Assembly (NCBI GenBank): GCA_050014495.1
Contig: JBEKDF010000005.1
Location: 32,001 to 96,000, forward strand
From: Candidatus Bathyarchaeia archaeon
Lineage (GTDB): Archaea > Thermoproteota > Bathyarchaeia > TCS64
Direction of reading: 5' to 3'
DNA: 64,000 nucleotides
Both the position numbers and the translations under genes were made by a program. Shown here in pieces: positions 523-64,000 of the stretch. The notes under the pieces were generated by a model. The model saw only the letters and a program-made list of their open reading frames with translations, was not told where the DNA came from and made no database searches. Each line of letters starts with the position of its first letter. Positions within the stretch are counted from its first letter, which is position 1.

Positions 523-678
523 GGCGTATAGGTACCCCAATTTCTCATACTTCGACTCTTAAAGGCTATTATGTCAATCAAAATATGCGCGCGCCCCCTA
601 TAACACCCCCTAAAACACTCAATAAAGCCCGGACATTACATAAGTTTTTTTAATGTAAGCAGGGTCTGCAATTAGGAA

Positions 679-996
679 ATGAGCGTCGCTGTCGTCGGGC
701 CCTCATCCTTCATCACCTGCTTCCAGCTGATTGGTGCGGAGGGTTACAACTGCGTCACTGGCGAAGAAGTCGCCTCGACGCTGAGCCGCCTCGTGGACGA
801 GAAAAAGTATAAACTGATAATCTTCCCCGAGAGGTTCGCTGCGGAGACCCTACCCGTTAGGGAGCAGGTCCTAAAGAGAGGCGCCATTTCGCCCGTCTTC
901 GCACTGGTGCCAGACTTTACAATGGAGACAGGCGACAGGATGCAGGAGCTACAGGCAGTAATCTCGCTTGCTATTGGAACAAAGCTGGAGTTGTGA
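679..996 (+). CDS. atpF: A/V-type ATP synthase subunit F
   Basis: 105 aa, AVVG...FQLIG N-terminus, AIG C-terminus, first gene of the ATPase cluster. Confidence 0.85.
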   Translation: MSVAVVGPSSFITCFQLIGAEGYNCVTGEEVASTLSRLVDEKKYKLIIFPERFAAETLPVREQVLKRGAISPVFALVPDFTMETGDRMQELQAVISLAIGTKLEL

Positions 997-1328
997 TGAT
1001 GGAAATCAAGAAAGTCTTATCGGTCGGCAAGAGGCTCCAAACCATCCTCGAGGAGGCGGAGAGGGAGTCCCAGCAAAAACTCGGGGACGCTAAGCGTCGC
1101 TCCGACGAAATAGTCAACAAGGCGAGGGCCGATGCTGAGGAGAAAAAGTCCAAGGCCCAACGTGGCGCTGGAATAGACGACCTGATCAATGCTGAAGAGA
1201 ACAGAGCTAAAGTAGAGGCCGAAAAGATCAAGACCCAATACCAACAAAAAATCGAAGCGATCAAGACGATCCCTAAGAAGAAGAGGGACCACTCCGTCGA
1301 TATTGTTGTGAAGGAGGTTCTCCCATGA
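996..1328 (+). CDS. atpH: A/V-type ATP synthase subunit H/G (peripheral stalk)
   Basis: Short, highly charged coiled-coil protein overlapping atpF and atpE. Confidence 0.65.
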   Translation: MMEIKKVLSVGKRLQTILEEAERESQQKLGDAKRRSDEIVNKARADAEEKKSKAQRGAGIDDLINAEENRAKVEAEKIKTQYQQKIEAIKTIPKKKRDHSVDIVVKEVLP

Positions 1329-1966
1329 CTCAACAGAGTAGTCTCGACCTTGAGACTAGACTCATCGAGCGTACCATGGCACAGCGGGATGAGATGATAG
1401 CAAAAGCAGACAATGACGCTAAGATGATGTTAGATAATGCAGAGAAGGAAGCGCAGCGTATAAAATCCGAGACTGATCGCCAGATTCTAAACATCGTCGC
1501 TAGCGTCCTCCGTGGCGTACGCGATAGAATAATCGGTGGAGTAGAACTTGAAAGCAGGAAGCAGCTGATGATCACACGTGAGGAGACCCTTCAGGAGATC
1601 TATGGTGAAGCCGAGAAAAAGCTCCAGGAGTTCTCCGCGGATAAGAAGGAGTACCACGATGTACTAATCAAATTCATTGTCGAGGCTGTGAAGGCCATCA
1701 GTGGTGAGGAGTTCATCGTATCTGCCAACGACACTGACCTTTCAGATCTCAAAAAGTCACATAAGAAGCTCGAAACTGACATTCAGAAGGCTGTCGGTTA
1801 TAAGGTGATCATCGCATTCGATGACACCCCTATCGCGACGATAGGGGGTGCTGTCGTCAAGAACGTCGACGGCACTAAGGTGTACTACAATACCTTCGAG
1901 GGCAGGATAAAGAAGGCTCGCGCTAAGCTCAATGTTACCCTTGCGAAGCTAATGGAGGCCGAATAA
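1325..1966 (+). CDS. atpE: A/V-type ATP synthase subunit E
   Basis: N-terminal coiled coil; C-terminal IGGAVV...YNTFEGR motif. Confidence 0.9.
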   Translation: MTQQSSLDLETRLIERTMAQRDEMIAKADNDAKMMLDNAEKEAQRIKSETDRQILNIVASVLRGVRDRIIGGVELESRKQLMITREETLQEIYGEAEKKLQEFSADKKEYHDVLIKFIVEAVKAISGEEFIVSANDTDLSDLKKSHKKLETDIQKAVGYKVIIAFDDTPIATIGGAVVKNVDGTKVYYNTFEGRIKKARAKLNVTLAKLMEAE

Positions 1967-1968
1967 AA

Positions 1969-3729
1969 ATGGGACTCATAGGCACAATTGAACGCATCAA
2001 TGGATCACTCATCAGGGCTAACTTTACTGAGGCGCCAAAGATCGGTGACCTCGTCGAGGTAGGCAACCTCAAGCTAATGGGTGAGATCGTTCGTCTCAAT
2101 GCCCAGACCGCATTCATCCAGTGCTACGAAATCACCGATGGCATCCGTCCCGGTGAACCTGTGAACGACACCGGTGAACCTCTAATGGCCGAGCTGGGCC
2201 CCGGTCTCATGGGCGCTATCATGGACGGCGTCGAGCGCAACGAGACGGAGCTCTGGAACAGAACCGGTCCCTTTGTCAGCAGGGGAACCAGTGTCGCACC
2301 ACTCGACAGGAAGAAGAAATGGGAGTTCGTACCAACCATCAAGAAAGGCGATAAGGTCGGCCCCGGCGATTTCATAGGGACCGTCCAAGAGACTAAGAGT
2401 TTCGTCCACAAGATCATGGTCCCACCAGAGATGAGCGGCACCATCAAGAGCATTAACAATGGCGAGTTCACAGTCGATGATACTATAGCCGAGCTGGAGA
2501 CTCCCAGCGGGATAAAGGAGCTCAAGCTCATGCAGAAGTGGCCTGTACGTAGACCGAGACCAGTCAAGCAGAGACTACCACTCAGCGTGCCACTCATCAC
2601 GGGTCAACGCGTAATCGACACCTTCTTTCCATGCGCCAAAGGCGGCGCAGCCGCCATCCCAGGCGGATTCGGAACAGGAAAGACCGTCACCCTCCAGCAG
2701 ATTAGCAAATGGAGCGACGCCGACATCATCATAATCATCGGTTGCGGAGAACGCGGCAACGAGATGGCAGATGTAGTCGCCCACTTCCCGGTTATAGTAG
2801 ACCCCAGAAGCGGCCGCAACTTAATCGAGAGAACCGTTATCATCGCCAACGTAAGTAATATGCCAGTCTCCGCCCGTGAAGCATCCATCTATATGGGCGT
2901 TACCCTTGGCGAGTACTTCCGCGACATGGGCTACGATGTAGCCGTTATGGCAGATTCTACATCGAGGTGGGCAGAGGCACTTCGAGATATCTCGGGCCGC
3001 CTAGAGGAGATCCCCGCAGAGGCAGGATTCCCCGCCTACCTTCCAGACAGGATCGCGGAACTCTACGAACGCGCAGCACGCGCTATTGTCCTTGGCACCC
3101 AGGATCGCATAGGCAGTGTAACGATGCTCGGAGCAGTCTCACCCCCCGGCGGAGACTTTAGCGAGCCAGTCACAACCTACACTCTCCGCTTCATAGGAAC
3201 ATTCTGGGCCTTAGATAGCACGTTGGCCCAGCGCCGCCACTTCCCAGCTATTAACTGGCTGAGAAGCTTCACACGATACCTCGACATATCCGCGGAATGG
3301 TGGAGTCAGTATGACAAGGACTGGCTAAGCAACCGCGCCAAGGCAATGAGCATATTAGAGGAGGCGGCCGAAATCGAGGAGACCGCTAGGATCATCGGTG
3401 AGAAGTCACTCCCAGACGACCAGCGTCTGGTGCTACTAGTTGCGGAGCTTCTTCGCGAGGGTTTCCTGGTCCAGGCCGCATATCACGAGGTAGACACCTA
3501 CTGTGACGCCGAGAAGCAGACGAAGCTCCTTCGCATAATCGTCGAGTTCAACAACATGGTTGAGGGACTTGTAAAGCAGAGCGTCCCGATTGAGAAGGTG
3601 CGCGAGCTTCCCATAGTCACGGAGATGATGAGACTAAAGGAACGCCAGGGCAGCCAACCCATCGACGATGCGAAGCAAGAGATGGTAAAGCAGGTCGGCG
3701 AACTCGCTAAGACCTACGGGGTGAGCTAA
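1969..3729 (+). CDS. atpA: A/V-type ATP synthase catalytic subunit A
   Basis: Walker [36 protein letters not shown]; 586 aa, no intein. Confidence 0.97.
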
Positions 3730-3730
3730 G

Positions 3731-5128: not shown

Positions 5129-5130
5129 CT

Positions 5131-6788: not shown

Positions 6789-6851
6789 CCATCCTCAAAT
6801 TTTTCCCAAACTATAAATCCGTTGAACTTAATTTGAATGTAGGACTAATCA

Positions 6852-13392: not shown

Positions 13393-13597
13393 GGGAAATC
13401 TTCAGCGTTCTCGGTATGTAATATTTTGGCATGATTCTGACCTTTTAACTGGATCAATTCAATATCTTTAGGCTAAACCACCGGGACATTCGGTGGAATG
13501 AAGCTCGCTGGGAAAAGGCCCTCACGCCTGTTACGATAAAGGGCAATTATGTTCAACAGGGAAAGGTCGCGCGCGCGAATTATTTAAAATTGATGAG

Positions 13598-15535: not shown

Positions 15536-18096
15536 CGTGTAAAGAATGCTCCGAGCCCCGTTTGTCGTGGGCGCCCGACGAGTTCGTCGAAGCTCATGTC
15601 GAGGGCGTCGAGCACCTGTTCGAAGGTACCCTCGAGGTACTCCTCCATCTTGCCTATGTCAACGTCCTTCTTGCTCGCAATCTGCACGGGTTTGACTCCA
15701 TCTTTCGTGACTACGTAACTGATTATGTCCCCTTCCTTAAGCTCGTAGCCCTGCTCCTCGAGCATCCTACCCGCCCTGACGTGCTGGGGCGTTGTGTCGT
15801 AGCCTGCGAGGCCCTTTCCGAGCATCATGCTGAAGGCGACCTCCTCTATGTCAAACTCACGGTTCTTGAGGCGGTGGTTGATGGTAGTAACGAGGTTCCT
15901 GATCTCCTCCTTAGCGAGGGGGAACTCTTCGGGACCCTCGACGTTGCTGAGGATATTAGTGAGTTTGATGAAAGCATCCTTAAGTATTGGTGGAATGTGG
16001 CGCTTCTTCCCCGTTAGTCCCTTTATATCGAGTTTACCGTCGGGGTAGACACCGAGGTAGTTCTTCTTCCTGCTGCTGAATATCGCATATCGGTACTGTT
16101 TGTCGACGTCGAGGTCGATACCAAGTTCCGCGTCTGCCCAGCCAACGAGGCCTTCGATCTGCTCTTTCGACGGCTTCTCTAGAAAGACTGAATCCGTGTC
16201 GCCATAGATGACCTCTATGCCAAGTTGTTGACTCTTGTCGACCGCCTTGGTCATCGCATAGCGACCGACGGCGGCGGTGCTCTCCGCCAGCGGGGGGCAG
16301 TAAAGGGGGAAGCTCTCGGAACCGAAGACCCCATAGCTGGCATTAAGGAAGACCTTGAGAGCCTGTGTGACGACGTCGTAATACTGTCGCTCCTCGACGC
16401 TGAGGGTCTTATCCTTACTGAGGGGCTTATACCACTGGACCCTTAGGTCGCGTAGGCTACCAATAATGAGGCTCGTCATCCCGCGATTCTTCTTGCAGAC
16501 CCAATGGGGGGTGCCGGGGACAAGGTTGTCCCTGCACTCTGGGTGGTTGCAGAGGATGGTGTCGTAGCTTAGGTTCCAGTTCCTGATGGCGCTGGGGTAA
16601 AGGCTGGCGAAGTCGCAGACGACGACACCGAAGTGTACGCCGGGTTTGGGGTCCCTAACTATTGCTCCCTGGTACTTCTTGCCCTTAATTATGCTAGTGG
16701 TGCTCGTCTGCCCCTTAACGTCTAGGATATCTTGGGTGTTGGGGATGAGCCAGCCTCGCCTACGATGTTCCCACTCCATGAGAGATAGTATCCACCGGCT
16801 CACACCGTTTCGTGTGACATCCTCCATTATCATTTTGCTGATTCGTGTGAGTAGAACTATAAGATTCATGGCGAGGTCGTGGTTGAAGGCGGTTAGCTGG
16901 TAGGTGAGGTCAGCATCATTTAGGCAGTACTGGGCAAGGTCCTGTATGTTCGCTGTCGTGATGTCTCCAATCTGAAGCTTTTCCATGTTGAGGAGGTTCT
17001 TGGATATCTCATTAAGTGTGTTTTCCCTGTAGCGGTTTCCGAAGGCGTAGCCCTGTATGCTCCTGTTCATGAAGAATTTGTAGAGATCGAGGTGGACGCC
17101 ATTTCTGAGGAAGGCGAATCTTCGTCCCATGACTATGGGGTTCTCGGAGTCGGGGATACCGAGGTTCTTCGCCCTGTTACGCATGTAACGGAAGTCGAAG
17201 TCGTCGCCGTTGAACGTGAGGACGACGGGGTACTCGTCGAGGATCTGGAATGTCTCCCTGATTATGTCACGCTCGTCAGTGTAGACTTTGACTTCCGCGC
17301 CAAGGACGACGGGTGTGGGAACGTCATGGTCAGTGTCATTAAGGACGATTATCCTGCGGAAGCCATCGCTGGCTGAAAATCCTACGGCTGTGATTGGTTC
17401 CTGTGCCTCATTGGCATTAGGAAGCCTGTTCTGGACACTTGGACGGACCTCGATGTCGATCGCGACGCGCCGCAGCTTGGGAACTGGGCATTGTAGGAGG
17501 CGGGTCCACTCCTTCATGTTACCCCTGAACTCGGGCTCAATTTTCTCTAGGATATTGTCAATCTTCGCTTCCGTCTCCATATCGAGGGTGTAACCGGCAT
17601 CGACTAGGTTGCCGTTCTCGATCCTGTATGGCATTCCGGTGATGAGTTCGCGGTCGTAGATGTAGCACTGGTAGTACCTGATTCGACTCTCCCAGCTGTC
17701 CCCAATGATACTCCTTATAGGTTGACCCCTGCCACCGCCTATGCTGAGAGGGTCCTTAGCGACGACCTTCGTAACCTTGATCTCCTGGTCTGCGAGTGAG
17801 TCATGTTTGGGGACCTCCTCCATGAAGAAGTAGCCCTCGTGGCGGAGTAGGCGCTGGTTCTTCTCAAGCTCCTTGATAGGCTCCCTGCTTAAGCAGTATG
17901 GGAGGTGGCTCGTGTTATCGTACCAGAGGTAGACCTGCTGGCTCACGGGCTCGTAAAGTCGTAGGTACGCCTTCTGCTCCTCGCCATCGTAGCCAGCGCT
18001 GAGGAGATAGCTTGTGGGAAGGTTGTCAGGAGCAATCCGTCCCTTTGGTCTAATCTCCTCCTCGCTCTCGTCCATGATGAAGTCAGGAGCAGCCAT
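15532..18096 (-). CDS. polB: Family B DNA polymerase (crenarchaeal PolB1 type)
   Basis: Exo DIE and FNGDDFD; polymerase DFASLYPS, K..LNASYG, YGDTDS, KKNY; no intein. Confidence 0.95.
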   Translation of the reverse strand: MAAPDFIMDESEEEIRPKGRIAPDNLPTSYLLSAGYDGEEQKAYLRLYEPVSQQVYLWYDNTSHLPYCLSREPIKELEKNQRLLRHEGYFFMEEVPKHDSLADQEIKVTKVVAKDPLSIGGGRGQPIRSIIGDSWESRIRYYQCYIYDRELITGMPYRIENGNLVDAGYTLDMETEAKIDNILEKIEPEFRGNMKEWTRLLQCPVPKLRRVAIDIEVRPSVQNRLPNANEAQEPITAVGFSASDGFRRIIVLNDTDHDVPTPVVLGAEVKVYTDERDIIRETFQILDEYPVVLTFNGDDFDFRYMRNRAKNLGIPDSENPIVMGRRFAFLRNGVHLDLYKFFMNRSIQGYAFGNRYRENTLNEISKNLLNMEKLQIGDITTANIQDLAQYCLNDADLTYQLTAFNHDLAMNLIVLLTRISKMIMEDVTRNGVSRWILSLMEWEHRRRGWLIPNTQDILDVKGQTSTTSIIKGKKYQGAIVRDPKPGVHFGVVVCDFASLYPSAIRNWNLSYDTILCNHPECRDNLVPGTPHWVCKKNRGMTSLIIGSLRDLRVQWYKPLSKDKTLSVEERQYYDVVTQALKVFLNASYGVFGSESFPLYCPPLAESTAAVGRYAMTKAVDKSQQLGIEVIYGDTDSVFLEKPSKEQIEGLVGWADAELGIDLDVDKQYRYAIFSSRKKNYLGVYPDGKLDIKGLTGKKRHIPPILKDAFIKLTNILSNVEGPEEFPLAKEEIRNLVTTINHRLKNREFDIEEVAFSMMLGKGLAGYDTTPQHVRAGRMLEEQGYELKEGDIISYVVTKDGVKPVQIASKKDVDIGKMEEYLEGTFEQVLDALDMSFDELVGRPRQTGLGAFFTR

Positions 18097-18128: not shown

Positions 18129-19025
18129 CTATGAGGGGGAGCCACGGCGAGCTCTCTCAGCCAAGTAGAGGGTCTCGAGAACGATGTAGGCTGCTTGGAT
18201 CGCGGTTAAACCCGAATCGTAATTGGGGGAGACCTCGCTCAAATCAAATCCGACGAGGTGTTCATCGACGGCGGTAGCAATCATGTCGAGTAGCTGGGTT
18301 ACCCCGATGCCTTCTGGGCTGGGGTTGCCAACGGCGGGAGCCTCAGCGGGGTCGACTGCATCCATGTCGATGCTTAGATAGACTGACTCAACTCCTTCGA
18401 GGGCTTCCTTGATCATTTCTTGGACGGGTTCGATACCAAACCGCTTTACGTCTTGCGCCGTGACGACGGTGACACACTTCTCCTTGGCGTATTCAATCTC
18501 CTCCGCAGAGAGGGCGCGTGCTGCGACGATTACGAGCTTAAATCCCTGCTCCTCATATGCCCTGCGTAGATAAGTAGCGTGACATAGGCGCTCGTCAAAG
18601 AGGGTGTCCCTGAGATCGAGATGGGCGTCGAAAACTATGACCATGGCAGGGCAGAGGGCGCGTAAAGCGCCGAGTGTGATCGTGTGTTCACCTCCGAGCA
18701 TGACTGGTAGCTTACCCGAACCCTTGATCTCTTCTACGAGCCTCCTGATTTTTTCTACGGTGGGCCCAACCTCCTCTACCTCGGCGATGTCGCCTATGTC
18801 GACGAGTTTGAGGTCCTCCCAGTCGAGGCCCGTCCTTACGCTGTAGCTCTCCATGTATTGGCTTACCTCCCTGATTGCGTTGGGGGCGAACCTGCTGCCG
18901 CTCCGGTAAGAGGCGGTCCGGTCCAGTGGTGCCCCGAAGAGTAAGTAGTCAGCATCCTCGGGTTCGCCTGACTTCTCGAAGAAAAGCTCGGGAACAGGAT
19001 TCAGCAACTCGTCAAATATCTTCAT
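18129..19025 (-). CDS. speB: Agmatinase
   Basis: GSRFAP, GGEHT, DAHLD, SIDMDAVDP. Confidence 0.9.
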   Translation of the reverse strand: MKIFDELLNPVPELFFEKSGEPEDADYLLFGAPLDRTASYRSGSRFAPNAIREVSQYMESYSVRTGLDWEDLKLVDIGDIAEVEEVGPTVEKIRRLVEEIKGSGKLPVMLGGEHTITLGALRALCPAMVIVFDAHLDLRDTLFDERLCHATYLRRAYEEQGFKLVIVAARALSAEEIEYAKEKCVTVVTAQDVKRFGIEPVQEMIKEALEGVESVYLSIDMDAVDPAEAPAVGNPSPEGIGVTQLLDMIATAVDEHLVGFDLSEVSPNYDSGLTAIQAAYIVLETLYLAERARRGSPS

Positions 19026-37378: not shown

Positions 37379-37504
37379 CAAATCCCAATCGTTATGTAGA
37401 CTCTCTATTCCTTTTGTGCGCTTTTTCCACGAATTGTCTTATGTAAGAGCGCATGCGCATTTAGTACACATCGGAACATCGTGAAGAGACTTCGGGCTCT
37501 TCAG

Positions 37505-47361: not shown

Positions 47362-47462
47362 GGAATAGAATTGGGTGGTCCACTTATGAAAGTAGTCCCG
47401 GATTGGCGCGTGCGCTCAGGTAACCCTTATCCCCATCCTCCTTTTCCTATGGTTCGATATCC

Positions 47463-50551: not shown

Positions 50552-50610
50552 ATCTATTTGTTTTCAAGATAGGGAACACTAATCCAATTACTTTCTTGAG
50601 TCGCGCGCGC

Positions 50611-51894
50611 TGGCTCGTCCCTAAAATATGCACACACCCAGCAGCCACCAAAACTTAAAGAACAAAATCACCAAACCGACGACCCAAGTGACCACCAATC
50701 AGCCAAACGAGCACACGGCCAGCACAGCAACCCCCAGAAAACGGACGAACCCACGCAGACAAGCAGAACACACACTAGCCACACCACGCAGACCCGAGAC
50801 CAGCCCTCACACGTTAAAGAACGTTGGAGACAACGCCTTATCCGGCCTACCCAGATTCTCCGCCGCCTCCCTGTTCAACACAAGGCACAGCACACTCAGC
50901 AACGCGTAGACACCCACGTTCACCAAGCCCCGAACCCTGTTCACCGTCAACCCATACTGGTTCTTCACGAAGGCGAACAGCGCCTCAACAGCAGGCCTCT
51001 TCCTGTACTCGGCCACCAGCTCCGCCGGACCATGAGTCCTGAACCACCTGTCCACCCGGAGCACATCCTCCCCACGCTGGTTAGCCGTGTACGGGATCAC
51101 CGTCCGCTCCGCCAGGCCCCTGACCCTACGGCTGCTGTACTGGCTGTCCCCGATCAGGCACCTGATCCTGGCATCGGCCCAACCCAGCACCGCCCTCGTC
51201 CTATCCACAAGCCACGGCGCGTGCCTCTTCTCGTTCTCGTTCGCCGGAGCCATCACCGCGGCCAGCGGCAGGATACGCCTCGGCTCCACCGAAGTGTGAA
51301 GCTTGTACCCGAGACCGTAGCTCCTCCCGTTCCTGCCTACACGCGCATCCGGGTCCGAGAGACCAATCTGGTTGTCTGCTGGGTTTCTGATGCTCCAAGC
51401 CTTAAGGAAGCTGGCGTCGAGGACCACATCCACCTCTGTGACTCCGCTTCTCCTGAGGAGCATTATGACCTTCTCCTCGATGATTAGCCTCAGCGTCTCT
51501 GCTCCGACTCTGTGGGTGAAGCGGCTGATGACTGACCTCGGGTAGCCGCCCTCGTCAGTCTCTATTAGGCAGAGCCGTCTAATGCGCTGGTCTATGTCGA
51601 GGATCCTGGTGAGCTCCCGTAGGCTGCGGATTCCCTTCAATCGCATTATGAGGAGGGCTCTGAGGATGCCGAGTGGGTTCCTCGGTGGTCTTCCGGGTCC
51701 GGTTGTGTGGTAGCAGCCGAGTAGCTGCTTCTGGGCAATGCTTAAGTCGACGTTTCTAAAGAGTGTTTCAAGGGTCTCGTGTTCATCTTGTCCTAAGTGA
51801 ACTCACCTCCTAGGGTTGGACAGACCATTTGGGGACGAGACCCCAACTGTTAAGATAAGCTTATTCTAGCCTGGATGAATTTCGGGACAGGCCA
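50611..51894 (-). mobile_element. Insertion sequence (~1.28 kb, IS5/IS1182-like DDE) with imperfect terminal inverted repeats
   Basis: Left end TGGCTCGTCCCTAAAAT versus right end reverse complement TGGCCTGTCCCGAAATT (13/17 match); GCGCGCGC on both flanks. Confidence 0.85.
50807..51796 (-). CDS. DDE transposase
   Basis: GRPP N-terminal motif upstream of ATG 51646, DAS, GYKLH, GDSQY, R..VE..F...K; frame open to 51802. Confidence 0.88.
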   Translation of the reverse strand, partial: LGQDEHETLETLFRNVDLSIAQKQLLGCYHTTGPGRPPRNPLGILRALLIMRLKGIRSLRELTRILDIDQRIRRLCLIETDEGGYPRSVISRFTHRVGAETLRLIIEEKVIMLLRRSGVTEVDVVLDASFLKAWSIRNPADNQIGLSDPDARVGRNGRSYGLGYKLHTSVEPRRILPLAAVMAPANENEKRHAPWLVDRTRAVLGWADARIRCLIGDSQYSSRRVRGLAERTVIPYTANQRGEDVLRVDRWFRTHGPAELVAEYRKRPAVEALFAFVKNQYGLTVNRVRGLVNVGVYALLSVLCLVLNREAAENLGRPDKALSPTFFNV

Positions 51895-52135
51895 GCGCGC
51901 GCATATATAAACTGAAGCGATCCACACTTTCGACTATAATCACTATATGAATTAACCATTTGATTCAATTCATCAATTTGGCAGCGGGAGCCAGCCTGCT
52001 ATTACTAGTTCTTCGCGTACACCGAGTTATCAGCTGCCATTGACAACTATAAAGGGGGATAATGGTTCTCCTTTAATAACAGTTATTAAATCCATAATGG
52101 GATAATTTATTAGCTTGCAAAGTCTCCTTAATCCT

Positions 52136-53380
52136 ATGGCAAAAAGAGAATACAAGTCTATTTCTCAACATCTGGGGCAATTTTCAAGCCCCAGAACCAA
52201 AATGACGTACCTCTCTGGGATTGGTGGCTTTTTCCGATTCATCAACCCCGATGTGAAGGACTTGGATGCCTACTCTATTTCTTACTTGAAGTCACATTCT
52301 CAGAGCCAAATCGAGTCTGACATAGTGAAGTTTCGAGACTCGATGTTGACCAGAGTAGCAAAGACCAGAACAGGGTACTTGAAATCGACTCTGGGATTCT
52401 TCGATGCGAATGATGTAACTTTCAAACGGAACTGGAAAAACAACATTATCGGTAAAGATACCACGGCTGTTTCTGAAGAAAGTATACCCACACAACAGGA
52501 ACTTGAGAGGATTCTAAACTTTATGCCGCTAATTGGCAAGGCAATAACCCTTTTTCTTTGCAGCTCCGGTGTGCGTGTAGGTGAACTACTCCAACTCAAA
52601 GAATCCAATATTGACCTCACGAAAAACCCAGTAATGGTAACTCTACCAGCCTCCATTACTAAGACCAAGAAAAAACGAGTGACATTCATCTCGATGGAAG
52701 CAAAGAAGATGCTTCAGGAGTGGTTGGAATACAAACCAAAGTGGCTGGAAACAACATCGACCAAAAGCCCCACACCCTTTGACACGACCCGTATATTCCC
52801 ATTAACCGACAACGGATACCGAGAGCTTTGGGATCGTGCTGTTGAGAAAGCCAAGTTAGCGGAGAAAGATCAGACAACAAACCGACTTCAACGCAGAATT
52901 CACGCACTGCGGAAATTCTTCAGGACTTACGGCAAGTGGCAACAACCAGACATAGCGGAAGCCCTGATGGGTCATTTGGGTGGCATAGAAGAAATCTATA
53001 CTAGATTCACAGAGAACCAGCTTAGAGAAGCCTACCTTACGGCGGAACCAAATTTGACCATTGTGGGTTCAGCGCCGAATCTGAAGGAGTTAGAGGCAAA
53101 GGTTGAGGCTAGGTATCAGGGTGTGGACAAGTTAATTGCTGATCTGTCAATCAAGAACCAAAGATTGGAAAATATTATTCAGAAAAGGGACACAGAGTAC
53201 AAAGAAATGATGGAAATCGCATTGAAACCATACTTGGAAACTTTTTCAACACTTAAAGATAGGGTAGATGCACAAGAGTTGGAAATTGACAATATGAGAA
53301 AGGCAGGGGAACTTCGGGATCAAGAAGAGGTATTGAAAATAATACCAGCGGAACTAAAAATTAAAAAAGATGAAGTGTAA
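52136..53380 (+). CDS. Tyrosine recombinase/integrase with C-terminal coiled coil
   Basis: Catalytic set SGVR.GE, TK.K, HALRKFF, LMGH, Y; visibly more AT-rich than the core genes. Confidence 0.92.
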   Translation: MAKREYKSISQHLGQFSSPRTKMTYLSGIGGFFRFINPDVKDLDAYSISYLKSHSQSQIESDIVKFRDSMLTRVAKTRTGYLKSTLGFFDANDVTFKRNWKNNIIGKDTTAVSEESIPTQQELERILNFMPLIGKAITLFLCSSGVRVGELLQLKESNIDLTKNPVMVTLPASITKTKKKRVTFISMEAKKMLQEWLEYKPKWLETTSTKSPTPFDTTRIFPLTDNGYRELWDRAVEKAKLAEKDQTTNRLQRRIHALRKFFRTYGKWQQPDIAEALMGHLGGIEEIYTRFTENQLREAYLTAEPNLTIVGSAPNLKELEAKVEARYQGVDKLIADLSIKNQRLENIIQKRDTEYKEMMEIALKPYLETFSTLKDRVDAQELEIDNMRKAGELRDQEEVLKIIPAELKIKKDEV

Positions 53381-53438: not shown

Positions 53439-53660
53439 TCAGTGGGTCGGTGAGTGTAGTTTGTCATATTTCGTGCGCGGCTCCTCCTGCACCTTGATCT
53501 TCGGATAGGCCCTCTCAATCTCCCTGACCTTCTCCGTGAAGGCTGCCTTGCAAAACCTGCTAACCTCATCGTGGCTAAAGCCAGCCATGCACGCGCGCAT
53601 TATTTCGCGTTGTATTCTAAAGAAACCGCTAAAAAAATTAATCCCTTTTTTCATTTTCAT
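53439..53660 (-). CDS. Small hypothetical protein convergent with the integrase
   Basis: 73-aa ORF with TATA-like sequence and a perfect palindrome upstream. Confidence 0.4.
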   Translation of the reverse strand: MKMKKGINFFSGFFRIQREIMRACMAGFSHDEVSRFCKAAFTEKVREIERAYPKIKVQEEPRTKYDKLHSPTH

Positions 53661-53678
53661 AGTGGATAAGACGGGCCA

Positions 53679-53704: not shown

Positions 53705-53927
53705 CAAATAATACGTTAATCGTATACGCTCTAACTATCAAATAAATCTATCGAAACAACTGATCAAGTGATTCGACGTTTAACTTCTTAGCATTTTGGT
53801 CCAGAAGAATTAGTTGTTGGGCCCGAAGGGACCTAACCTATTTAGGTTAAGAACCTATTTCATTCAGGGTTCGTGTCGCTTGCGCAGCACTAGCTTTTGA
53901 TACTATGCGCACTGAGCAGACTATTTG

Positions 53928-55202: not shown

Positions 55203-55269
55203 TATCTTAATCTTAACAATCGTAAGAGATAAGAAGTAATACTGAGCGCTGAGAAAATATTTGCGTTGC

Positions 55270-55383
55270 GCGCACGCCTGAGATGCCGTGCCTCTCGATT
55301 AACTGCTGAGGGACGACGTACTTGTCCCTGAATGCACGCGTAGCAGGGTTCAGCTCATCGCCCGGATGTACGTCCACGCTCAT
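55270..55383 (-). pseudogene. 5' fragment of a gene, apparently cut at a GC tract
   Basis: ATG 55383 lies 16 nt after the upstream stop; reads MSVDVHPGDELNPATRAFRDKYVVPQQLIERHGISGV; composition changes after TGCGCGCACGC. Confidence 0.45.
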
Positions 55384-55399
55384 GATGGCTGGTATCCCC

Positions 55400-56395: not shown

Positions 56396-56651
56396 ACCGA
56401 TCTCCTCTTATTATCGATGCACGCGCGCTTATGAATGAAGATGATATCCACTTGTTTCTATTGAGAGTGGGGTCACATGGCATTTTTAGGTCTCAGATTA
56501 TTCCTAAATTGGAAAGACAAGATAATTAAATTCGATTTAGGTCATAGCAAATAATTCCTAGGGGTAACCATTCTCATAAAATCCGCGTGCATCGGTGATC
56601 AAAGCATAAGATGAAAATTGCTTAATCGTGAAAAGTCGCTACTTGTGCAAA

Positions 56652-56966: not shown

Positions 56967-56978
56967 GAATTTTCACCA

Positions 56979-57644: not shown

Positions 57645-57753
57645 AATACATCATTTTAAGCATTTTAGGCGGCTAATTTAAATCAGATTAAACTAATGTG
57701 CTTTCGCAACTTGGCCTTTATTCCGTCAATACGAGCGAATTCGTAGCCATTCC

Positions 57754-58677
57754 CTATTTCTTAAAATAAAGAACTTTCATACCCGTGTCCCCGATTGAAT
57801 CCTTCAGCATTGTGTCATAATGCACCTTCTCAGGCAGATCGTAGGACACGTAGACCGCCATAGTGAGCTTATCCCTCCAATTTGCTAGTGCAGCCTCCCA
57901 ACCATTTACTCTTAAATATTCAGCGAGCTGCCTAGGGCTAAATCTCTGCCCAGTCACTCCATTTGCGTTTTGGAGGGCTAGAAAGCTCCAAGCCTCCGAG
58001 AATGCCTCAACCATTTCGTCGTCACTTGCATAACCTGACCTCACATCTTCAGGCAATTTAGCCTCATCACCCGGCTTGAGTCTGCTGGGCTTAAGCCTTT
58101 TACCCTCAGTGGCGGCTACACTAAGTGAGTTCACAGCGACATTATACTGATAGAGTTCCATGGCCAGGCACTGTGTTAGGCCCTCTAAACCATACTTTGA
58201 CGGGCAATACGCTGTCTCAGCGACAAAGCCCCTTGTCGCAGACCCAGAGGAGATATTCATAATGCTGCCTTTTCCCTGCTTCTTCATCATTGGCAGGAAT
58301 AATTTACTGAGTATGAACGGTGCACGCAGATTAATTGAAATCGATCTGTCCCATTCCTCAATCGTCGTCTCCTCGAAGAGTTTCCAGAGATTATCCGCTG
58401 CACAATTTACCAGCGTATCTATTCTCCCATACTCATTCTCAATAAGATCCCTTAGTCTCGTAATATCCTCCATCTTAGTTAGGTCGGTGGGAAGAATTGA
58501 ACAAGTACCCTCCCACCCTTTTAGATCAATGTTCTCCTTAAGAGCCTTCAATTCATCTAGGGAACGAGATGCAGCTACAACCTTGGCGCCTTGGGAAACA
58601 AGTCCCATGCACAGGTACTTACCATAACCGCGCCCAGCACCAGTAAGGACGACCACCTTGCCACTTAGTCTACCCAT
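57754..58677 (-). CDS. Short-chain dehydrogenase/reductase with C-terminal extension
   Basis: TGAGRGYG, LVNCA, NISS, YCPSK. Confidence 0.9.
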   Translation of the reverse strand: MGRLSGKVVVLTGAGRGYGKYLCMGLVSQGAKVVAASRSLDELKALKENIDLKGWEGTCSILPTDLTKMEDITRLRDLIENEYGRIDTLVNCAADNLWKLFEETTIEEWDRSISINLRAPFILSKLFLPMMKKQGKGSIMNISSGSATRGFVAETAYCPSKYGLEGLTQCLAMELYQYNVAVNSLSVAATEGKRLKPSRLKPGDEAKLPEDVRSGYASDDEMVEAFSEAWSFLALQNANGVTGQRFSPRQLAEYLRVNGWEAALANWRDKLTMAVYVSYDLPEKVHYDTMLKDSIGDTGMKVLYFKK

Positions 58678-58990
58678 AAAAGCCACGAGTTTTCCTAAAT
58701 GTACCTAGCTTTTAAAATTATTGCCTAAATAGTCAGCGATCAGATCGACAATCTATTTTTATTTATAATATCAAAAAAAACCATTATTGATGTGAGTTCT
58801 TAACACTATTATGAAAAAAGGATCTGATTTTCCAATGCCTCATAAAAATAAATAATAGATTAATGGAAAAATATGATAAATAGTTGATGAAAAACTTATT
58901 TAGTTATTATAATTATTTAATAACGGATAGGACGCGCACCTCTTCATACCAGCTAGTGTCGTACGCCAAGTTATCGCCCTATCCAAATAA

Positions 58991-59722: not shown

Positions 59723-59812
59723 ATTGCCTCAATGTAAATGATACCTCAGAATTAATAGATTTCCAGAGTTGAAAGAGATAGAACTTTAAAGTAAAAAAAC
59801 GGAGAGAACTGT

Positions 59813-61063
59813 ATGCTCTCCAGAACAGTAATAAAAGCGAGAAGATTAATCGACGGAGTTGGCGAAGAATCAATCGAAGATCCGATTCTTGTTGTTGAAG
59901 GCGGCCTCATCAGGGAGGTTCATACGAGAGGAGAGGAGCCCCAAATCCGAAGCGACGACGAGGTAATTCTCTTAGGTGATTGCACCATTTTGCCGGGTTT
60001 AATCGACTCCCACATACATATGACGCTAGGAACTTCGGAGAACTACTATGAGGTTGTGAGAGAGTCGGATGGAATACACCTCGCCGCCGGCATCACAAAC
60101 TGTAGATCCGCCTTAAGATCCGGCATAACAAGCATCGTCGATGCAGGGTCAAGGAACCTGGTAGCACACGACCTAAGAGAGGCTGAGAAGAGAGGCATAA
60201 TCGAGGCCCCCAATCTAATCATAGCTGGTCGACCACTCACCATAACTGGGGGCCACTTTTGGTTCTGCAACGATAACGAAGCCGATGGAATAGAACAGGT
60301 GCTTAGGAGAGTACGTCAATTCGTCAAAGAGGGTATTGATATTCTCAAGCTAATGGCTTCGGGTGGAGGATCAGCGACACAGGGTTCGATGGGTGGACCC
60401 ACGGCAGCCATGGTAGCATTTAGTAAAGAAGAGTTGGAAACCGCGGTAAAAGAAGCGCATAAATTTGGCAGAATAACCACAGCCCACTGCGAGGCATACG
60501 AATCCGTTTACAACGCGGCTTCCGCTGGAGTCGATGTGTTGGCCCACTGCGGCTTCATCAGGCCTGATGGAGAGAGATCATTCGACGATGAAGCTGTCAA
60601 ACTCATGGCTGAGAAGAAGCTGTTCTACAACCCCACACTCCAAACAGGGTCGGCGAGGTACGATGAGCTTAAAACGAGGAATAAGATGGGAAGCCTCTCC
60701 CCTAAGGAAAAAGAGGCTCTAGAGGTACTAGAATACAAGTTCAATAGAAAATACGAGAACCTCAGAAAAATGCTCGCATATGGAGTAGAAATAGTCGCTG
60801 GTTCCGATTCCACTGGCCTCGGCAAATCCACTAGATTACTCAGGACACTGGAAATGATGCATGAATCCGGCATGTCCCCGATCCAGGTTATTAAATCGGC
60901 GACCTCTAATGCAGCAAAGGCACTTAAAATTGAAAATAAGGTTGGCTCAATACACGAAGGGTTGAGAGCAGACCTAATTGTGGTGGAGGGAGATCCAGCA
61001 AAGGAGATCAGTGACCTAAAAAAGACCAAGTTGGTTATGAAATCGGGAAGAATCGTGAAATAG
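59813..61063 (+). CDS. Metal-dependent amidohydrolase
   Basis: LPGLIDSHIH, TGGH, K.MASGG, AH, H, AGSD, G..ADL.VV.GDP. Confidence 0.92.
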   Translation: MLSRTVIKARRLIDGVGEESIEDPILVVEGGLIREVHTRGEEPQIRSDDEVILLGDCTILPGLIDSHIHMTLGTSENYYEVVRESDGIHLAAGITNCRSALRSGITSIVDAGSRNLVAHDLREAEKRGIIEAPNLIIAGRPLTITGGHFWFCNDNEADGIEQVLRRVRQFVKEGIDILKLMASGGGSATQGSMGGPTAAMVAFSKEELETAVKEAHKFGRITTAHCEAYESVYNAASAGVDVLAHCGFIRPDGERSFDDEAVKLMAEKKLFYNPTLQTGSARYDELKTRNKMGSLSPKEKEALEVLEYKFNRKYENLRKMLAYGVEIVAGSDSTGLGKSTRLLRTLEMMHESGMSPIQVIKSATSNAAKALKIENKVGSIHEGLRADLIVVEGDPAKEISDLKKTKLVMKSGRIVK

Positions 61064-61121
61064 TTCCTCTCCTCCCCCGTTAAAGTAAATATTCATTAAT
61101 TTGTATTAATTTCAAATAATC

Positions 61122-61505
61122 ATGAGATCATACATTAAAATAATGGGTCCACCGTTGGGGAAAGCACTCAAAGAATTAGAAAAAATTGCGATAGACATGC
61201 CGCAAGTCTGCATAATGGATGAAGCCATCATGCATGGTATTCCCAAAGAACTGAGCGAAGATGTCGGTGAGTCGGTTAAGTACTCAGAGCACGTAGGAAA
61301 CTTATTCGCTGAAAGAACAGGGGTCGTCGTCGAAACCGAGAGATGTAGTAAAATAATTAGCAAATCCGACAGAGTCCTTGGAGAATATGACTTTTTTTTT
61401 GAATGGTTCAAGAAACCAAGAATAAACGATCTGAATGACCTCATCCAAAAAGTCGACGACATCCTTGCCCCGCTCGGAGTCCACTACACGATTACTACAA
61501 AATGA
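61122..61505 (+). CDS. Hypothetical protein
   Basis: 127-aa ORF with AT-rich promoter-like upstream region. Confidence 0.6.
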   Translation: MRSYIKIMGPPLGKALKELEKIAIDMPQVCIMDEAIMHGIPKELSEDVGESVKYSEHVGNLFAERTGVVVETERCSKIISKSDRVLGEYDFFFEWFKKPRINDLNDLIQKVDDILAPLGVHYTITTK

Positions 61506-61576
61506 AGACTCAACAATCACACATCTTCGAGCAAGTGAAAAACTGCTCAATAACAGTGGATCTATTAAACCCCTCA

Positions 61577-61898
61577 TTACTTCTTGGGGATGGCTTCAAC
61601 AATTTTCTCAATCACAGATTCCCTGAAACGAGGACGACTCTCACTATTACCATTCTCATTACCCTGCCGAACCACAACAAGATCTAGGCTCGGAATAACG
61701 TAGCAATCATTCGCGTTATTACCCTGAATCATAGAAGCGTCATTCGGCACGTTCCTCAGATTATCAAGGATCCAATAGGCGTAGCCATAGTTACTGGGGA
61801 ATTCACCATTATCTCTCACAAATCTATTAGTTGCCTTTTCAACCAGGTCTTCGGGATAAGCTGTCGCTCCCCCCATCGACCATTATTCAGCCACAGAT
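61577..61898 (-). pseudogene. C-terminal remnant of a beta-lactamase-family serine hydrolase
   Basis: LWLNNGRWGERQLIP in one frame, then VEKAT...YGYAYW...G.....YVIPSLDLVVVR in another; N-terminal part absent. Confidence 0.7.
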
Positions 61899-61941
61899 GC
61901 GCGCACTGAGCGACGACTAAAGAGCTGTGCCTCTTTATGTT

Positions 61942-62982
61942 TTAGTATTGGAGGTTCATATTAAACAAGTTCCGAAGTGGTAATCCTTTCAAATATAGAC
62001 TTAGATTTTCGCAGAAAAGTTTCACCAGTTCAACGTTCTCGCTGTCCACATTGCTGGCTGAGTGGGGGCTCAAAAGAACCTGGGGCAATTCCCATAGGGG
62101 GCTATCGTGGGGGAGGGGTTCCGTCGTTTGGACATCGAGGGCAGCTCCTAAGAGTTTGCCCGAATTCAGAGCTCTAATTAGAGCCGCCTCGTCCACTATG
62201 GCTCCCCTAGCAATGTTGATCAATACGGCGCTTGATTTCATGGCAGCTAGCTCTTCTTCTCTTATCAGACCCGTCGTCTCTAATGTTTGAGGGATGCAAA
62301 GTACTACGAAGTCGGCCTGACTGAGCATGGGCTTGAGGTCTGTCCATGGATATAGGCGTTCAACTCCCAAGGAGGCTGAGTTAACCCCCTCAGTATTGCG
62401 TTTTGTTCCAATTACATGCATGCCAAAGCAATTTGCAAGCTTAGCTACCTCTTGGCCTATTTTTCCCAAGCTGATAATAGCAACTGTCTTCCCCTTTAAT
62501 GTGGTTCCAGCATATCTCCCCCAGTGCCTGCTCCCTTTCTCCTTGATCATACGTGGAGCATCCTTCACGAACCAGAGCATGGCCATGATGGAGAACTCTG
62601 CCAAGGGTGTAGCATGTATTCCACTAGCGGTCGTAATAGGAATATTCAGATCGGAGAAGCCTTTTAGCTTGACCCATTGGCCAACTCCGGCACTAGGAGA
62701 TTGCACCCATTTAAGGCAGGGCGCAGTTTTGAAAAGCTCTTTCACATCCGTGTGTAACACGTATCCGAATAGAACTTCGGTCTGGGACAGCAATTCTAGC
62801 CAGCGTTTCTTTTGTGTAGGAGAATGTTGAATTTGGGTCCCATGCTGATCGCAAAGATATCTAGGCCTACCAAGGAGATCCGGTTCATACAATACTTCAA
62901 TACGAGGATCCACTTCCTCTATTTTTTTGATCAAATTCGTTTCTATAGTAAAAGTGATCAGAACCTTTACCTTCTCTGACAT
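61942..62982 (-). CDS. D-2-hydroxyacid dehydrogenase
   Basis: SAGV, LGKIG, P.T.ET, NIARG.IVDE, LDV...EPL, SPH. Confidence 0.92.
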   Translation of the reverse strand: MSEKVKVLITFTIETNLIKKIEEVDPRIEVLYEPDLLGRPRYLCDQHGTQIQHSPTQKKRWLELLSQTEVLFGYVLHTDVKELFKTAPCLKWVQSPSAGVGQWVKLKGFSDLNIPITTASGIHATPLAEFSIMAMLWFVKDAPRMIKEKGSRHWGRYAGTTLKGKTVAIISLGKIGQEVAKLANCFGMHVIGTKRNTEGVNSASLGVERLYPWTDLKPMLSQADFVVLCIPQTLETTGLIREEELAAMKSSAVLINIARGAIVDEAALIRALNSGKLLGAALDVQTTEPLPHDSPLWELPQVLLSPHSASNVDSENVELVKLFCENLSLYLKGLPLRNLFNMNLQY

Positions 62983-63137
62983 TACTTAAACACTAATAGA
63001 ATTGAGAATAAAACTCTTCTCGAGCGCGTTTCCAGTAGGGCGTGCATACCCTGTAGATATTTTCTCAACATACTATCGATTTGTCGAGTGAGCAGAGGGG
63101 GCCTCTGCGTTGTGTGAGGGATAAGATTATGGTGGAT

Positions 63138-63896
63138 CTATTTCTTAAAGTATAGAACCTTCATCCCAATATCGCCGATCGTGTCCTTCAGCATGGTATC
63201 ATAGTAGACCTTCTCGGGTAGATCATAGGACACGTAGACCGCCTTTGTGAGCTTATCCCTCCAGTTAGCAACAGCAGCCTCCCAGCCATTAGCCCTCAGG
63301 TAATCAGCGAGCTGTATGGGGCGAATCTCTGACCGGTGATACCATGCGCGTTTTGGAGGGCTAGGAAACTCTAGGCCTCTGAGAAGTTCCCAACCATCTC
63401 ATCGTCGCTAGCAAACTTTAACCTCAACTCCTCAGATAACTTGGTCTCGTCACTCAGTGTGAGTCTGCTTGGTTTAAGCCTCTTACCCTCAAGGGCGCTC
63501 ACACTGAGTGAATTCACTGCGACATTGTACTGGTAGAGCTCCATCGCCAGGCACTGGGTTAAGCCCTCTAACCCATACTTTGATGGGCAATACGCTATCT
63601 CAGCGACGAAGCCTGTCGTCGCAGACCCAGAGGAGATGTTTACGATGCTACCCTTGCCCTGCTTCTTCATCATGGGCAGAAACAACTTAACACAAATGGT
63701 GCACGAAGGTTGATCGAGATCGACCTATCCCACTCCTCGATAGTGCGCGCGCGAATCCTTCAAAGCCTTCAACTCCGCCAGGGAACGAGACGCGGCTACG
63801 ACGTCGGCACTCTCAGAAGCAAGTCCCATAGACAAATACTTACCATAACCACGTCCAGCACCCATCACATGGACCACTCTGCCAAAGTCTACCCAT
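63138..63896 (-). pseudogene. Decayed paralogue of the SDR at 57754-58677
   Basis: Collinear similarity from promoter to stop; TGG>TAG at 63371-63373, frameshifts and a ~169-nt internal deletion. Confidence 0.9.
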
Positions 63897-64000
63897 TAAA
63901 GCCACGACACTCTAAAATGTCACCAGCTTTTAAAATGATTACTGAAAAAAAATATGAGTCACTCGCGCATGGGCATTGCTGTTGAAACCGAGAGGTGTAA

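What the first reader, a model, noticed from the sequence alone, without database searches (positions are those of the whole stretch)
587..63971. Alternating GC tracts mark rearrangement junctions across the window: candidate undescribed DNA joining or insertion system
Seen: alternating purine-pyrimidine tracts of 6-15 nt dominated by GC occur at 587-594, 13568-13577, 37449-37458, 47406-47415, 50602-50610, 51895-51902, 53586-53600, 53881-53912, 55267-55277, 56417-56428, 56584-56592, 58932-58939, 61897-61906, 63024-63049, 63743-63753 and 63964-63971. Nearly all lie in otherwise AT-rich spacers or broken genes. They are densest in the accessory region, where they separate most gene modules. Several lie exactly where a gene is cut (listed as separate findings). 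Inference: they are scars or targets. One option is untemplated or slippage (GC)n synthesis during end-joining; another is a transposase or recombinase that targets (GC)n and leaves adjacent deletions. I know of no described archaeal mechanism with this signature.
Basis: partly seen in the sequence, partly recalled or inferred. Interest (0 to 1): 0.8.

Follow-up and report, generated by a model that had tools for sequence, protein, structure and literature searches.

The report
GC-repeat footprints of archaeal jumping genes
The short GCGCGCGC runs in this archaeon are real, sit where DNA was deleted or rejoined and are mostly not copied from the broken DNA; they are likely footprints left by a family of jumping genes whose two ends begin GCGCGC, which would make each run a readable record of a past rearrangement.

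Summary
Observation confirmed genome-wide: 404 pure (GC)n runs of 8-10 nt in non-coding DNA against 3.5 expected, with a sharp cap at 10 nt. Inside the window alone the excess is marginal. The runs mark junctions: at 55 of 59 sides with an intact homologue, at most 2 nt are templated. A sister strain shows a 949-bp deletion sealed by exactly GCGCGCGC. Two listed runs are the tips of an insertion sequence (50605-51900; 327-aa DDE transposase) of a Bathyarchaeia family whose ends carry GCGCGC to sites that lack it. Free runs show the flank base of each genome's resident subfamily. Across 151 genomes, run-richness follows the transposase (odds ratio 5.4), not Ku (1.5). Best reading: insertion or adjacent deletion, then loss of the element, leaving 4+4 nt of its tips. 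The excision chemistry is inferred. Against it: 14 of 32 run-rich genomes lack a detectable transposase. It works like IS5/IS1182 but passes neither family's cut-off. This scan reported the feature before, on other DNA of this and another genome, with split readings. New variant of a known kind.

The parts
50605..51900 (-). Insertion sequence including its two GCGCGC tips (core 50611-51894, 1284 bp)
   Evidence: Terminal inverted repeats TGGCTCGTCCCTAAAAT / TGGCCTGTCCCGAAATT. Absent in strains of runs X13 and X14, where 54-62 other letters stand between 50607 and 51902/51910.
50807..51790 (-). 327-aa DDE transposase frame (DUF772-like N-terminus, DDE_Tnp_1); no standard start codon
   Evidence: Pfam; D125 and D215 invariant and E269 nearly invariant in 13 homologues; model pLDDT 84, best fold matches piggyBac and Tn5 transposases; start region.
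50602..50610 (.). GC run CGCGCGCGC: element tip (50605-50610) plus 3 flanking nt; also the synteny break after the arginine deiminase-like gene
   Evidence: in 6 related loci the next gene is one that lies on contig C6 in this genome.
51895..51902 (.). GC run GCGCGCGC: element tip (51895-51900) plus 2 flanking nt
63743..63753 (.). Free run GTGCGCGCGCG sealing an internal deletion of about 170 bp (codons about 49-105) in a short-chain dehydrogenase remnant
   Evidence: Aligned to the intact paralogue at 57754-58677, which has no run at either breakpoint; GT templated, 9 nt not (75-80% identity).
63371..63883 (-). Short-chain dehydrogenase remnant cut by the run at 63743
   Evidence: tblastn of the paralogue: residues 6-48 on one side, 106 onward on the other.
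61897..61906 (.). Free run ATGCGCGCAC truncating a gene remnant
   Evidence: Left flank matches a paralogue on C5 up to the run; the intact copy continues GTAACCC, 0 nt templated.
47406..47415 (.). Free run GCGCGTGCGC in an otherwise syntenic spacer that is about 14 bp shorter than in two relatives
   Evidence: Three related loci have the spacer without the run; shared with the strain of run X13.
53586..53600 (.). Free run (core GCACGCGCGC) truncating a small gene
   Evidence: Right flank matches C61 at 88%; the intact copy has no run.
587..594 (.). Free pure run GCGCGCGC in the spacer before the ATP synthase operon
   Evidence: Sequence; no homologous flank was held, so junction status is inferred by class.
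13568..13577 (.). Free pure run CGCGCGCGCG in a spacer
   Evidence: Sequence; junction status inferred by class.
37449..37458 (.). Interrupted run GCGCATGCGC between convergent genes
   Evidence: Sequence; one relative lacks it but at only 66% identity.
55267..55277 (.). Interrupted run TGCGCGCACGC between accessory modules
   Evidence: Sequence; inferred by class.
56417..56428 (.). Interrupted run ATGCACGCGCGC between accessory modules
   Evidence: Sequence; inferred by class.
58932..58939 (.). Interrupted run ACGCGCAC (decayed, weak)
   Evidence: Sequence; inferred by class.

Best explanation
The runs sit at deletion and rearrangement junctions, are mostly not copied from the broken DNA, and are likely footprints of a Bathyarchaeia insertion-sequence family whose two ends begin with the self-complementary GCGCGC. 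Shown: the element's ends are GCGCGC + 5 variable nt + TGT(C/T), and the tip stands at sites whose intact allele has no GC run. Shown: elements can replace 157-421 bp with no target duplication, and free runs seal deletions with a non-templated core of about 8 nt. Inferred step 1: the transposase joins tip-bearing ends to weakly preferred sites (after a pyrimidine for this subfamily, after A or TA for others), either at two separate sites in one event or by later adjacent deletion. Inferred step 2: the element is later cut out with a staggered cut 4 nt inside each tip, as mariner-type elements cut inside their ends, and host repair joins the two flanks, leaving GCGC+GCGC. Slippage between the two tips is an alternative route to the same product. 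Ku-LigD may do the sealing here but appears not to be required. Inferred step 3: runs then decay by C-to-T / G-to-A changes, and pure runs over 10 nt are lost faster. The result is a genome-wide record of several hundred to about a thousand past events.
For: Tip conservation: positions -1 to -5 are 95-100% CGCGC and -6 is 89% G in 115 ends from 80 loci, across subfamilies of 31-100% identity whose next five bases differ. Tips at naive sites: 8 of 12 ends with a homologous flank lack the run in the intact copy, with 5-7 nt (mostly 6) non-templated; further cases at 93% and 99% identity. Both elements whose two flanks map to one intact locus replace 157 and 421 bp. Free runs: 55 of 59 sides have 0-2 templated nt. 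The two-sided cases give a core of 8 (run X16; C33:13894), 6-9 (C33:31598) and 9 (window 63743). In G184, 68 runs of 8 nt against 27 of 9 and 12 longer. Flank signature: the base before a tip follows the transposase subfamily (68% identity or more: pyrimidine 31 of 34; 50-67%: A 55 of 107). Free GCGCGCGC runs follow the resident subfamily: T 155 of 258 sides in this genome, A 43 of 70 in G033, A 101 of 116 in G184. The only GCGCGCGC in the 1.8 Mb of G001 is an element tip. In 151 Bathyarchaeia genomes, 18 of 32 run-rich against 23 of 119 run-poor carry the transposase (odds ratio 5.4); for Ku 10 of 32 against 27 of 119 (1.5); 20 of 22 genomes with Ku but no transposase are run-poor (kin are not independent).
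Against: 14 of 32 run-rich genomes have no match to the transposase profile. These include G149 (601 GCGCGCGC, no DDE_Tnp_1, no tip-plus-TIR motif; a scaffold with N gaps, 86% complete) and G015 (20 contigs). G052 has 46 end-motif hits and a full Ku-LigD operon, yet no excess of free runs in the 400 kb read. Free runs outnumber element ends about ten to one in this genome, which needs a long history of high activity. No clean empty site of a simple insertion was found, so the primary target and any duplication are unresolved. An 8-nt core with independent flanks predicts about 48 runs of 11-12 nt and 9 are seen (type counts), so a purge must be added. No excision intermediate was observed.
Confidence: 0.68

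Rival explanations
1. Host scar-writing end joining: a host primase-polymerase (LigD PolDom or PriS) adds a short self-complementary GC tail to broken ends, the tails anneal or are ligated, and the IS family has only come to mimic or be captured by such ends.
For: Runs are non-templated at most junction sides, with 1-2 nt matches enriched (22 of 59 with 1 nt, 11 with 2). A complete PolDom-Ku-ligase/phosphoesterase operon lies at C3:63436-67463. Run-rich genomes without a detectable transposase exist. Archaeal PriSL has terminal-transfer and microhomology-annealing activity (PMC12019639, abstract).
Against: Ku does not co-distribute with the runs. Five run-bearing genomes lack both Ku and PolDom matches (completeness not given). 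G001 and G010, of the same genus, have Ku but 0-1 nine-mers. The tip is a near-fixed 6 nt in run-poor hosts too, and its flank base follows the transposase subfamily, not the host. No palindromic (P-nucleotide) extension into flanks. No IEE-type primase in 5 genomes searched.
Confidence: 0.2
2. Ordinary strict targeting: the element ends in GC, inserts only at pre-existing GCGC with a 4-bp duplication, and imprecise excision that keeps both copies makes the 8-mer. A piggyBac-like hairpin could carry the 4 nt to odd sites.
For: Left plus right run lengths minus 8 give plausible empty sites of 3-10 nt for 12 complete elements in this genus. GCGC stands at -6 to -3 on both sides in most complete elements. 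The best fold match is piggyBac, which excises with a 4-nt flank overhang (PMC7351741, passages).
Against: Only 2 of 59 free-run sides have 4 or more templated nt. Both two-flank insertions have no GCGC at their breakpoints. Deviations in the putative duplication appear on one side only. With the overhang carried to non-GCGC sites this model merges with the best explanation.
Confidence: 0.08
3. The runs are functional motifs (Z-DNA or terminator-like signals, or attC-like cassette sites for the neighbouring tyrosine recombinase).
For: Strong non-coding bias; a XerA-like integrase lies at 52115-53380 between two runs.
Against: All four gene-orientation classes are used about equally (99, 85, 84, 79). 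Runs cut genes and elements mid-sequence and are absent from syntenic spacers of relatives. They decay by transitions, and their number varies from 0 to over 400 within one genus. No gyrase match in 5 genomes.
Confidence: 0.03
4. Assembly or amplification chimeras.
For: The genome is a 92-contig assembly; one relative's locus (L020) looks like a fold-back artefact and was left out.
Against: Identical junctions in independent runs and contigs; the same runs in few-contig assemblies of other families; old runs carry substitutions.
Confidence: 0.01

Closest known systems
IS5-family / IS1182-family insertion sequences (DDE_Tnp_1 with DUF772)
   Same: Single DDE transposase with a Y-x2-R-x3-E type motif, short terminal inverted repeats with a TGT(T/C) core, 1.1-1.3 kb, non-autonomous derivatives.
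   Different: Scores below both NCBIfam cut-offs (84 of 140; 95 of 270). Ends carry a self-complementary GCGCGC tip, no consistent target duplication is seen, and the genome holds hundreds of element-free GC footprints.
IS1272 of Staphylococcus (replacement transposition; PMC5678879, passages seen)
   Same: Insertion without target duplication, with loss of target DNA.
   Different: IS1272 replaces 22-30-bp inverted repeats and has a 548-aa transposase. Here 157-421 bp are replaced, stem-loop targets are not shown (one palindromic site, L377), and footprints remain after loss of the element.
IS elements inserted into DNA breaks (bioRxiv 10.1101/2024.06.02.596822; first quarter of the text and passages seen)
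   Same: IS copies at deletion junctions without target duplication, including an IS5/IS1182 element; a 4-bp sequence mistaken for a duplication was copied with an IS481 element.
   Different: No element-free scars are described in the parts read; single events, not a genome-wide signature.
Tc1/mariner and Sleeping Beauty excision footprints; piggyBac flank-carrying hairpins (PMC7351741, passages seen)
   Same: A staggered cut inside the element or inside its flank leaves terminal bases at the donor site, which end joining turns into a footprint.
   Different: Eukaryotic elements with strict TA or TTAA targets. Here the chemistry is inferred from sequence only, in an archaeon, and the leftover is self-complementary GC.
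IS-excision enhancer IEE (bioRxiv 10.1101/2023.06.07.543989, passages; PMC9943667, search listing)
   Same: IS loss with adjacent deletions and short microhomologies.
   Different: No AEP-TOTE match in 5 genomes searched; IEE did not stimulate IS5 excision in the passage read.
Archaeo-prokaryotic NHEJ (Ku, LigD PolDom, ligase, phosphoesterase)
   Same: A complete operon is in this genome and could seal donor breaks.
   Different: It does not predict run load across genomes; that it writes GC repeats is not shown.

Membership tests
IS5 family | DDE catalytic triad in an RNase H-fold transposase | tested here: met
   D125, D215 invariant, E269 nearly invariant; fold matches piggyBac, Tn5, Mos1.
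IS5 family | Score over the curated family cut-off | tested here: not met
   NF033581 84 bits against 140, though aligned over residues 10-302; other IS5 models lower.
IS5 family | Short terminal inverted repeats beginning with G (feature recalled, not from a call) | tested here: met
   GCGCGC + TGGCTTGTCCC at both ends.
IS5 family | Fixed short target-site duplication (recalled: 2-9 bp by subgroup) | tested here: inconclusive
   TA/TA at 4 of 7 young G184 copies, but the other three are discordant; no concordance in near-identical G052 copies; no long duplications in 104 element records, some redundant; no simple empty site found.
IS1182 family | Score over the cut-off and full-length match to the 488-position model | tested here: not met
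   94.8 bits against 270; best stretch only residues 14-131; the protein is 327 aa.
IS1182 family | N-terminal DUF772 domain | tested here: inconclusive
   19.5 bits, below the gathering score of 23.1.
IS1182 family (IS1272 type) | Replacement of a stem-loop target without duplication | tested here: inconclusive
   Replacement without duplication seen in 2 of 2 two-flank cases; targets not shown to be stem-loops.
piggyBac-type or mariner-type staggered excision | Position of the second-strand cut relative to the element end | not testable with these tools
   Needs purified transposase or mapped excision ends.
Archaeo-prokaryotic NHEJ as the writer of the runs | Ku, PolDom, ligase and phosphoesterase present | tested here: met
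Archaeo-prokaryotic NHEJ as the writer of the runs | Co-distribution with the runs | tested here: not met
   Odds ratio 1.5, not significant; 10 run-rich genomes have the transposase but no Ku match; no PolDom match in 5 run-bearing genomes.
Integron (IntI, attI, attC cassettes) | Co-oriented single-gene cassettes bounded by imperfect-hairpin attC sites and an IntI over cut-off | tested here: not met
   Orientation classes even; runs cut genes; no shared flank motif except element ends; integrase 23 bits against 265 for the integron model.

The most novel reading that the evidence does not exclude
Bathyarchaeia have an undescribed scar-writing joining route: broken chromosome ends receive a fixed self-complementary GCGC tail, from a host primase or from a transposase-associated activity, so that any two ends, or an end and an excised element, can be joined. 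The IS family's GC tips are an adaptation to this route. Run-rich genomes with neither the transposase nor Ku (G149, G153, G167, G174, G198, G203) would be its purest cases.
Probability: 0.2. Interest if true: 0.85.

Novelty: new variant of a known kind. Interest (0 to 1): 0.58.

Why it matters
Prokaryotic IS elements normally leave little readable trace once lost. Here a fixed, genome-foreign motif marks several hundred junctions per genome in at least five Bathyarchaeia families, so rearrangement history, gene truncation and module shuffling can be counted and roughly aged by decay of the runs in organisms that are mostly uncultured. It makes a long-standing question testable: what happens to the donor site after cut-and-paste transposition in archaea, and whether IS elements patch existing breaks. 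(GC)n patterns are generally suppressed in prokaryotes (PMC4060949, passages), so a lineage that accumulates them up to a sharp 10-nt ceiling also gives a natural measure of their tolerated length. Ten full-text searches listed no paper on this signature; the library lacks most subscription papers and ISfinder was not available.

Tried and rejected
P-nucleotide (hairpin-opening) origin: flank complementarity equals random pairing. Long target duplications: 0 of 104 element records; the one apparent 200-bp case (L020) lies in a fold-back-like contig and was dropped. TA as a strict duplication: discordant in 3 of 7 near-identical copies, and TA at the two sides of free runs is independent (19/29/10 for 0/1/2 sides). 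Host-determined flank base: it looked so, but one search showed that it follows the transposase subfamily. PolDom next to Ku as the difference between run-rich and run-poor genomes: the operon is the same in both. Gyrase (supercoiling, Z-DNA): no match in 5 genomes, so Z-DNA as the cause of the 10-nt cap is unsupported. Strong GCGC avoidance in coding DNA: rho 0.84, like other palindromes. Empty sites of simple insertions: sought by protein and DNA mapping of both flanks of 76 elements and by genus searches around G052 and G033; only replacements were found. Reading-frame phase across element junctions: no element sat in a frame open on both sides. The letters of the 54-62-nt empty allele at the window's element are not shown by the read tool. 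G149 could be read only in 24 kb of 2 Mb. Runs with small word shares (X19-X24) were not used. One review paper was not held, so IS5/IS1182 end and duplication rules are recalled.
Full report
Setting. The window is G000:C5:32001-96000 of a 3.1-Mb, 92-contig assembly. Records that carry close relatives of its transposase are titled Bathyarchaeia (78 of 80), and the best holders of the DNA are peat metagenomes. The first 50 kb are housekeeping genes; the rest is an accessory region with an IS, a XerA-like integrase and mixed enzyme genes.

The observation. The 16 stretches are there. Five are pure runs of 8-10 nt, most others carry one or two transitions, and two (53881, 63024) are not single tracts. 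In the window alone the excess is marginal (5 against a mean of 1.2, maximum 5 in 100 simulations). Genome-wide, GCGCGCGC is the most over-represented 8-mer (1024 against 58). Non-coding DNA holds 180, 129 and 95 pure runs of 8, 9 and 10 nt against 2.8, 0.6 and 0.1 expected, and only 7 longer ones. The ceiling holds in all 24 genomes checked (11-mer counts far below 9-mer counts). Interrupted runs differ by G-to-A or C-to-T changes, as expected of decay (the scan keeps only purine-pyrimidine alternation, so transversions are not counted). The trait is patchy: 0 to 429 nine-mers among 17 congeners, and rich genomes in several families among 151 sampled.

The runs mark junctions and are not copied from the broken DNA. 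In a self-comparison 135 of 1350 alignment ends lie within 6 nt of a run against 0.7% of positions (element ends included). In a mosaic 20-kb region 14 of 46 alignment ends to relatives lie at runs against 3.7% (ends taken from 25 long, high-identity matches). Of 110 run sides with a homologous flank, 41 were element ends or element-internal variants and 10 were shared duplicates. Of the remaining 59, the intact copy matches 0 nt in 22, 1 in 22, 2 in 11 and more in 4. The cleanest case is from reads: a contig of run X16 (about 96% identical) skips 949 bp of a gene on C2 and has exactly GCGCGCGC between the two sides. The intact allele ends in GC and resumes with GC but has no run at either breakpoint, so the fresh scar is 12 nt. 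In the window, 63743 seals a deletion of about 170 bp in a dehydrogenase remnant, 61897 and 53586 truncate genes, and 47406 replaces part of a spacer that three relatives keep intact.

An element carries the motif. Runs 50602 and 51895 are the ends of a 1.3-kb element with an intact DDE triad and a fold like piggyBac and Tn5 transposases. About 70 such ends in this genome, of four end types, follow a GC run. In 115 ends from 80 loci the five nearest bases are 95-100% CGCGC and the sixth is 89% G, while the next five bases inside differ between subfamilies. In 8 of 12 ends with a homologous flank the intact copy has no run, and the non-templated part is mostly six bases (identities 80-91%); two more cases stand at 93% and 99%. 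Both elements whose two flanks map to one intact locus have replaced 157 and 421 bp, with no run at the breakpoints. At the window's element, strains of runs X13 and X14 have 54-62 other letters, not shown by the tool. G001 has one GCGCGCGC in 1.8 Mb, and it is a tip.

Free runs carry the element's signature. The base before a tip depends on the transposase subfamily: a pyrimidine in 31 of 34 ends of the window's subfamily, A in 55 of 107 ends of the 50-67% group. Free GCGCGCGC runs follow the resident subfamily: T at 155 of 258 sides here, A at 43 of 70 in G033 and at 101 of 116 in G184, where TA stands at 49 of 116. In G184 the 8-mer dominates. Six at a tip and eight at a free junction is what a cut 4 nt inside each tip would leave.

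Host or element? But the same operon is in run-poor genomes. In 151 genomes, 18 of 32 run-rich (10 or more nine-mers per Mb) and 23 of 119 run-poor carry the transposase, against 10 of 32 and 27 of 119 for Ku; kin are not independent, so these are descriptive. Five run-bearing genomes lack both Ku and PolDom matches. Against the element model: 14 run-rich genomes have no transposase match, among them G149, with 601 GCGCGCGC, TA-type flanks, no DDE_Tnp_1 and no Ku, but N gaps where repeats may be lost. G052 has many young elements and NHEJ but no excess of free runs in 400 kb, only local short ones.

Mechanism. Shown: tips, naive junctions, replacement without duplication, a core of about 8 nt, and the shared flank signature. 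Inferred: the transposase joins tip-bearing ends to weakly preferred sites, with deletion at once or later; excision leaves GCGC on each flank; host repair joins them. Mariner-type footprints and piggyBac's carried 4-nt overhang are the described analogues (PMC7351741, passages); sequence alone cannot tell them, or slippage between tips, apart. The ceiling is unexplained: an 8-nt core with independent flanks fits the 9-mers and CGCGCGCGCG (35 predicted, 33 seen) but predicts about 48 runs of 11-12 nt where 9 are seen (my arithmetic). I put 0.68 on element origin, about 0.45 on the 4+4 cut in particular, 0.2 on host writing and 0.08 on strict GCGC targeting.

Comparison with what is known. It works like IS5/IS1182 elements, closest to IS1272's replacement without duplication (PMC5678879, passages) and to IS capture at breaks (bioRxiv 2024.06.02.596822, first quarter and passages), but it passes neither family's cut-off, so I do not file it as a member. 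IEE-type excision (bioRxiv 2023.06.07.543989, passages) has no matching enzyme in five genomes. Ten searches listed no description of the signature. No supplements were opened; those of the two preprints are closed and could hold junction tables that bear on the comparison. Earlier notes of this scan on other DNA reached the same observation with split readings. One gave me the 'GC-tipped' reading and the IS1272 lead, which I then tested. New here are the read-level deletion, the flank signature and the 151-genome comparison.

Verdict. A real, genome-wide and apparently undescribed footprint of an archaeal IS family; a new variant of a known kind. Interest 0.58; a host scar-writing route stays open at 0.2 and would rank 0.85.

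Noticed in passing
window 51780-51815 (- strand) and homologous loci: The transposase frame is conserved from QDEHETLE onward and follows a strong AGGAGG site, yet most copies, including the window's, have no in-frame ATG/GTG/TTG there: a non-standard start or a frameshift may limit expression.
   Followed up: partly
G000:C3:63436-67463 (L244): Complete NHEJ operon (LigD PolDom, Ku, ligase fused to phosphoesterase, DUF72); Ku matches in 37 of 151 Bathyarchaeia genomes, patchily distributed.
   Followed up: yes
window 52115-53380 (+): XerA-like tyrosine recombinase of 421 aa with a long C-terminal extension, below all NCBIfam cut-offs, bounded by two GC runs; probably the remnant of an integrated element.
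   Followed up: no
G000:C17:57461-58785 and C48:5777-7101; L007, L027: Composite element in which one family's end abuts another family's core without any GC tip (junction ...CATACCGTC|TG); found in two genomes.
   Followed up: partly
G000:C33:13841-13895 / 18417-18471; C13:37250 / 42050; C25:23487 / 30757; L379:15955-16014 / 16773-16830: Short (45-210 bp) segments duplicated 0.8-7 kb away and bounded by GC runs, like local templated captures.
   Followed up: partly
G000:C33:207 and C9:1-111: A repeated element with a GLDIHK motif (IS110-like, recalled) has the same ATGCGCGCG at its end in two copies, perhaps a captured scar.
   Followed up: no
L377:12472-13610 (G184): A young element sits in the centre of a perfect palindrome (TTCGGATA ... 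TATCCGAA), like IS1272-type hairpin targets.
   Followed up: partly
genome-wide, e.g. L166:233-260: A dispersed AGCCTTATCC / GGATAAGG motif is the next most over-represented non-GC word, often as TGGGGCCATAGTCTTATCCCCAA; possibly a regulatory or repeated element.
   Followed up: no
G000:C20:26047-27366 (L233:844-2163): A second 439-aa primase-small-subunit-like protein of unknown role, plus a third weak hit on C53.
   Followed up: no
L096, L098: The same element at 71% identity lies in records titled Dehalococcoidia and Patescibacteria; misbinned archaeal contigs are the likelier cause.
   Followed up: no
L044:9467-9478: A deletion of about 200 bp in a glycoside hydrolase gene joins two natural GC/RY-rich spots with a mostly templated ACGCGCGTGCGC, an exception to the non-templated rule.
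   Followed up: partly
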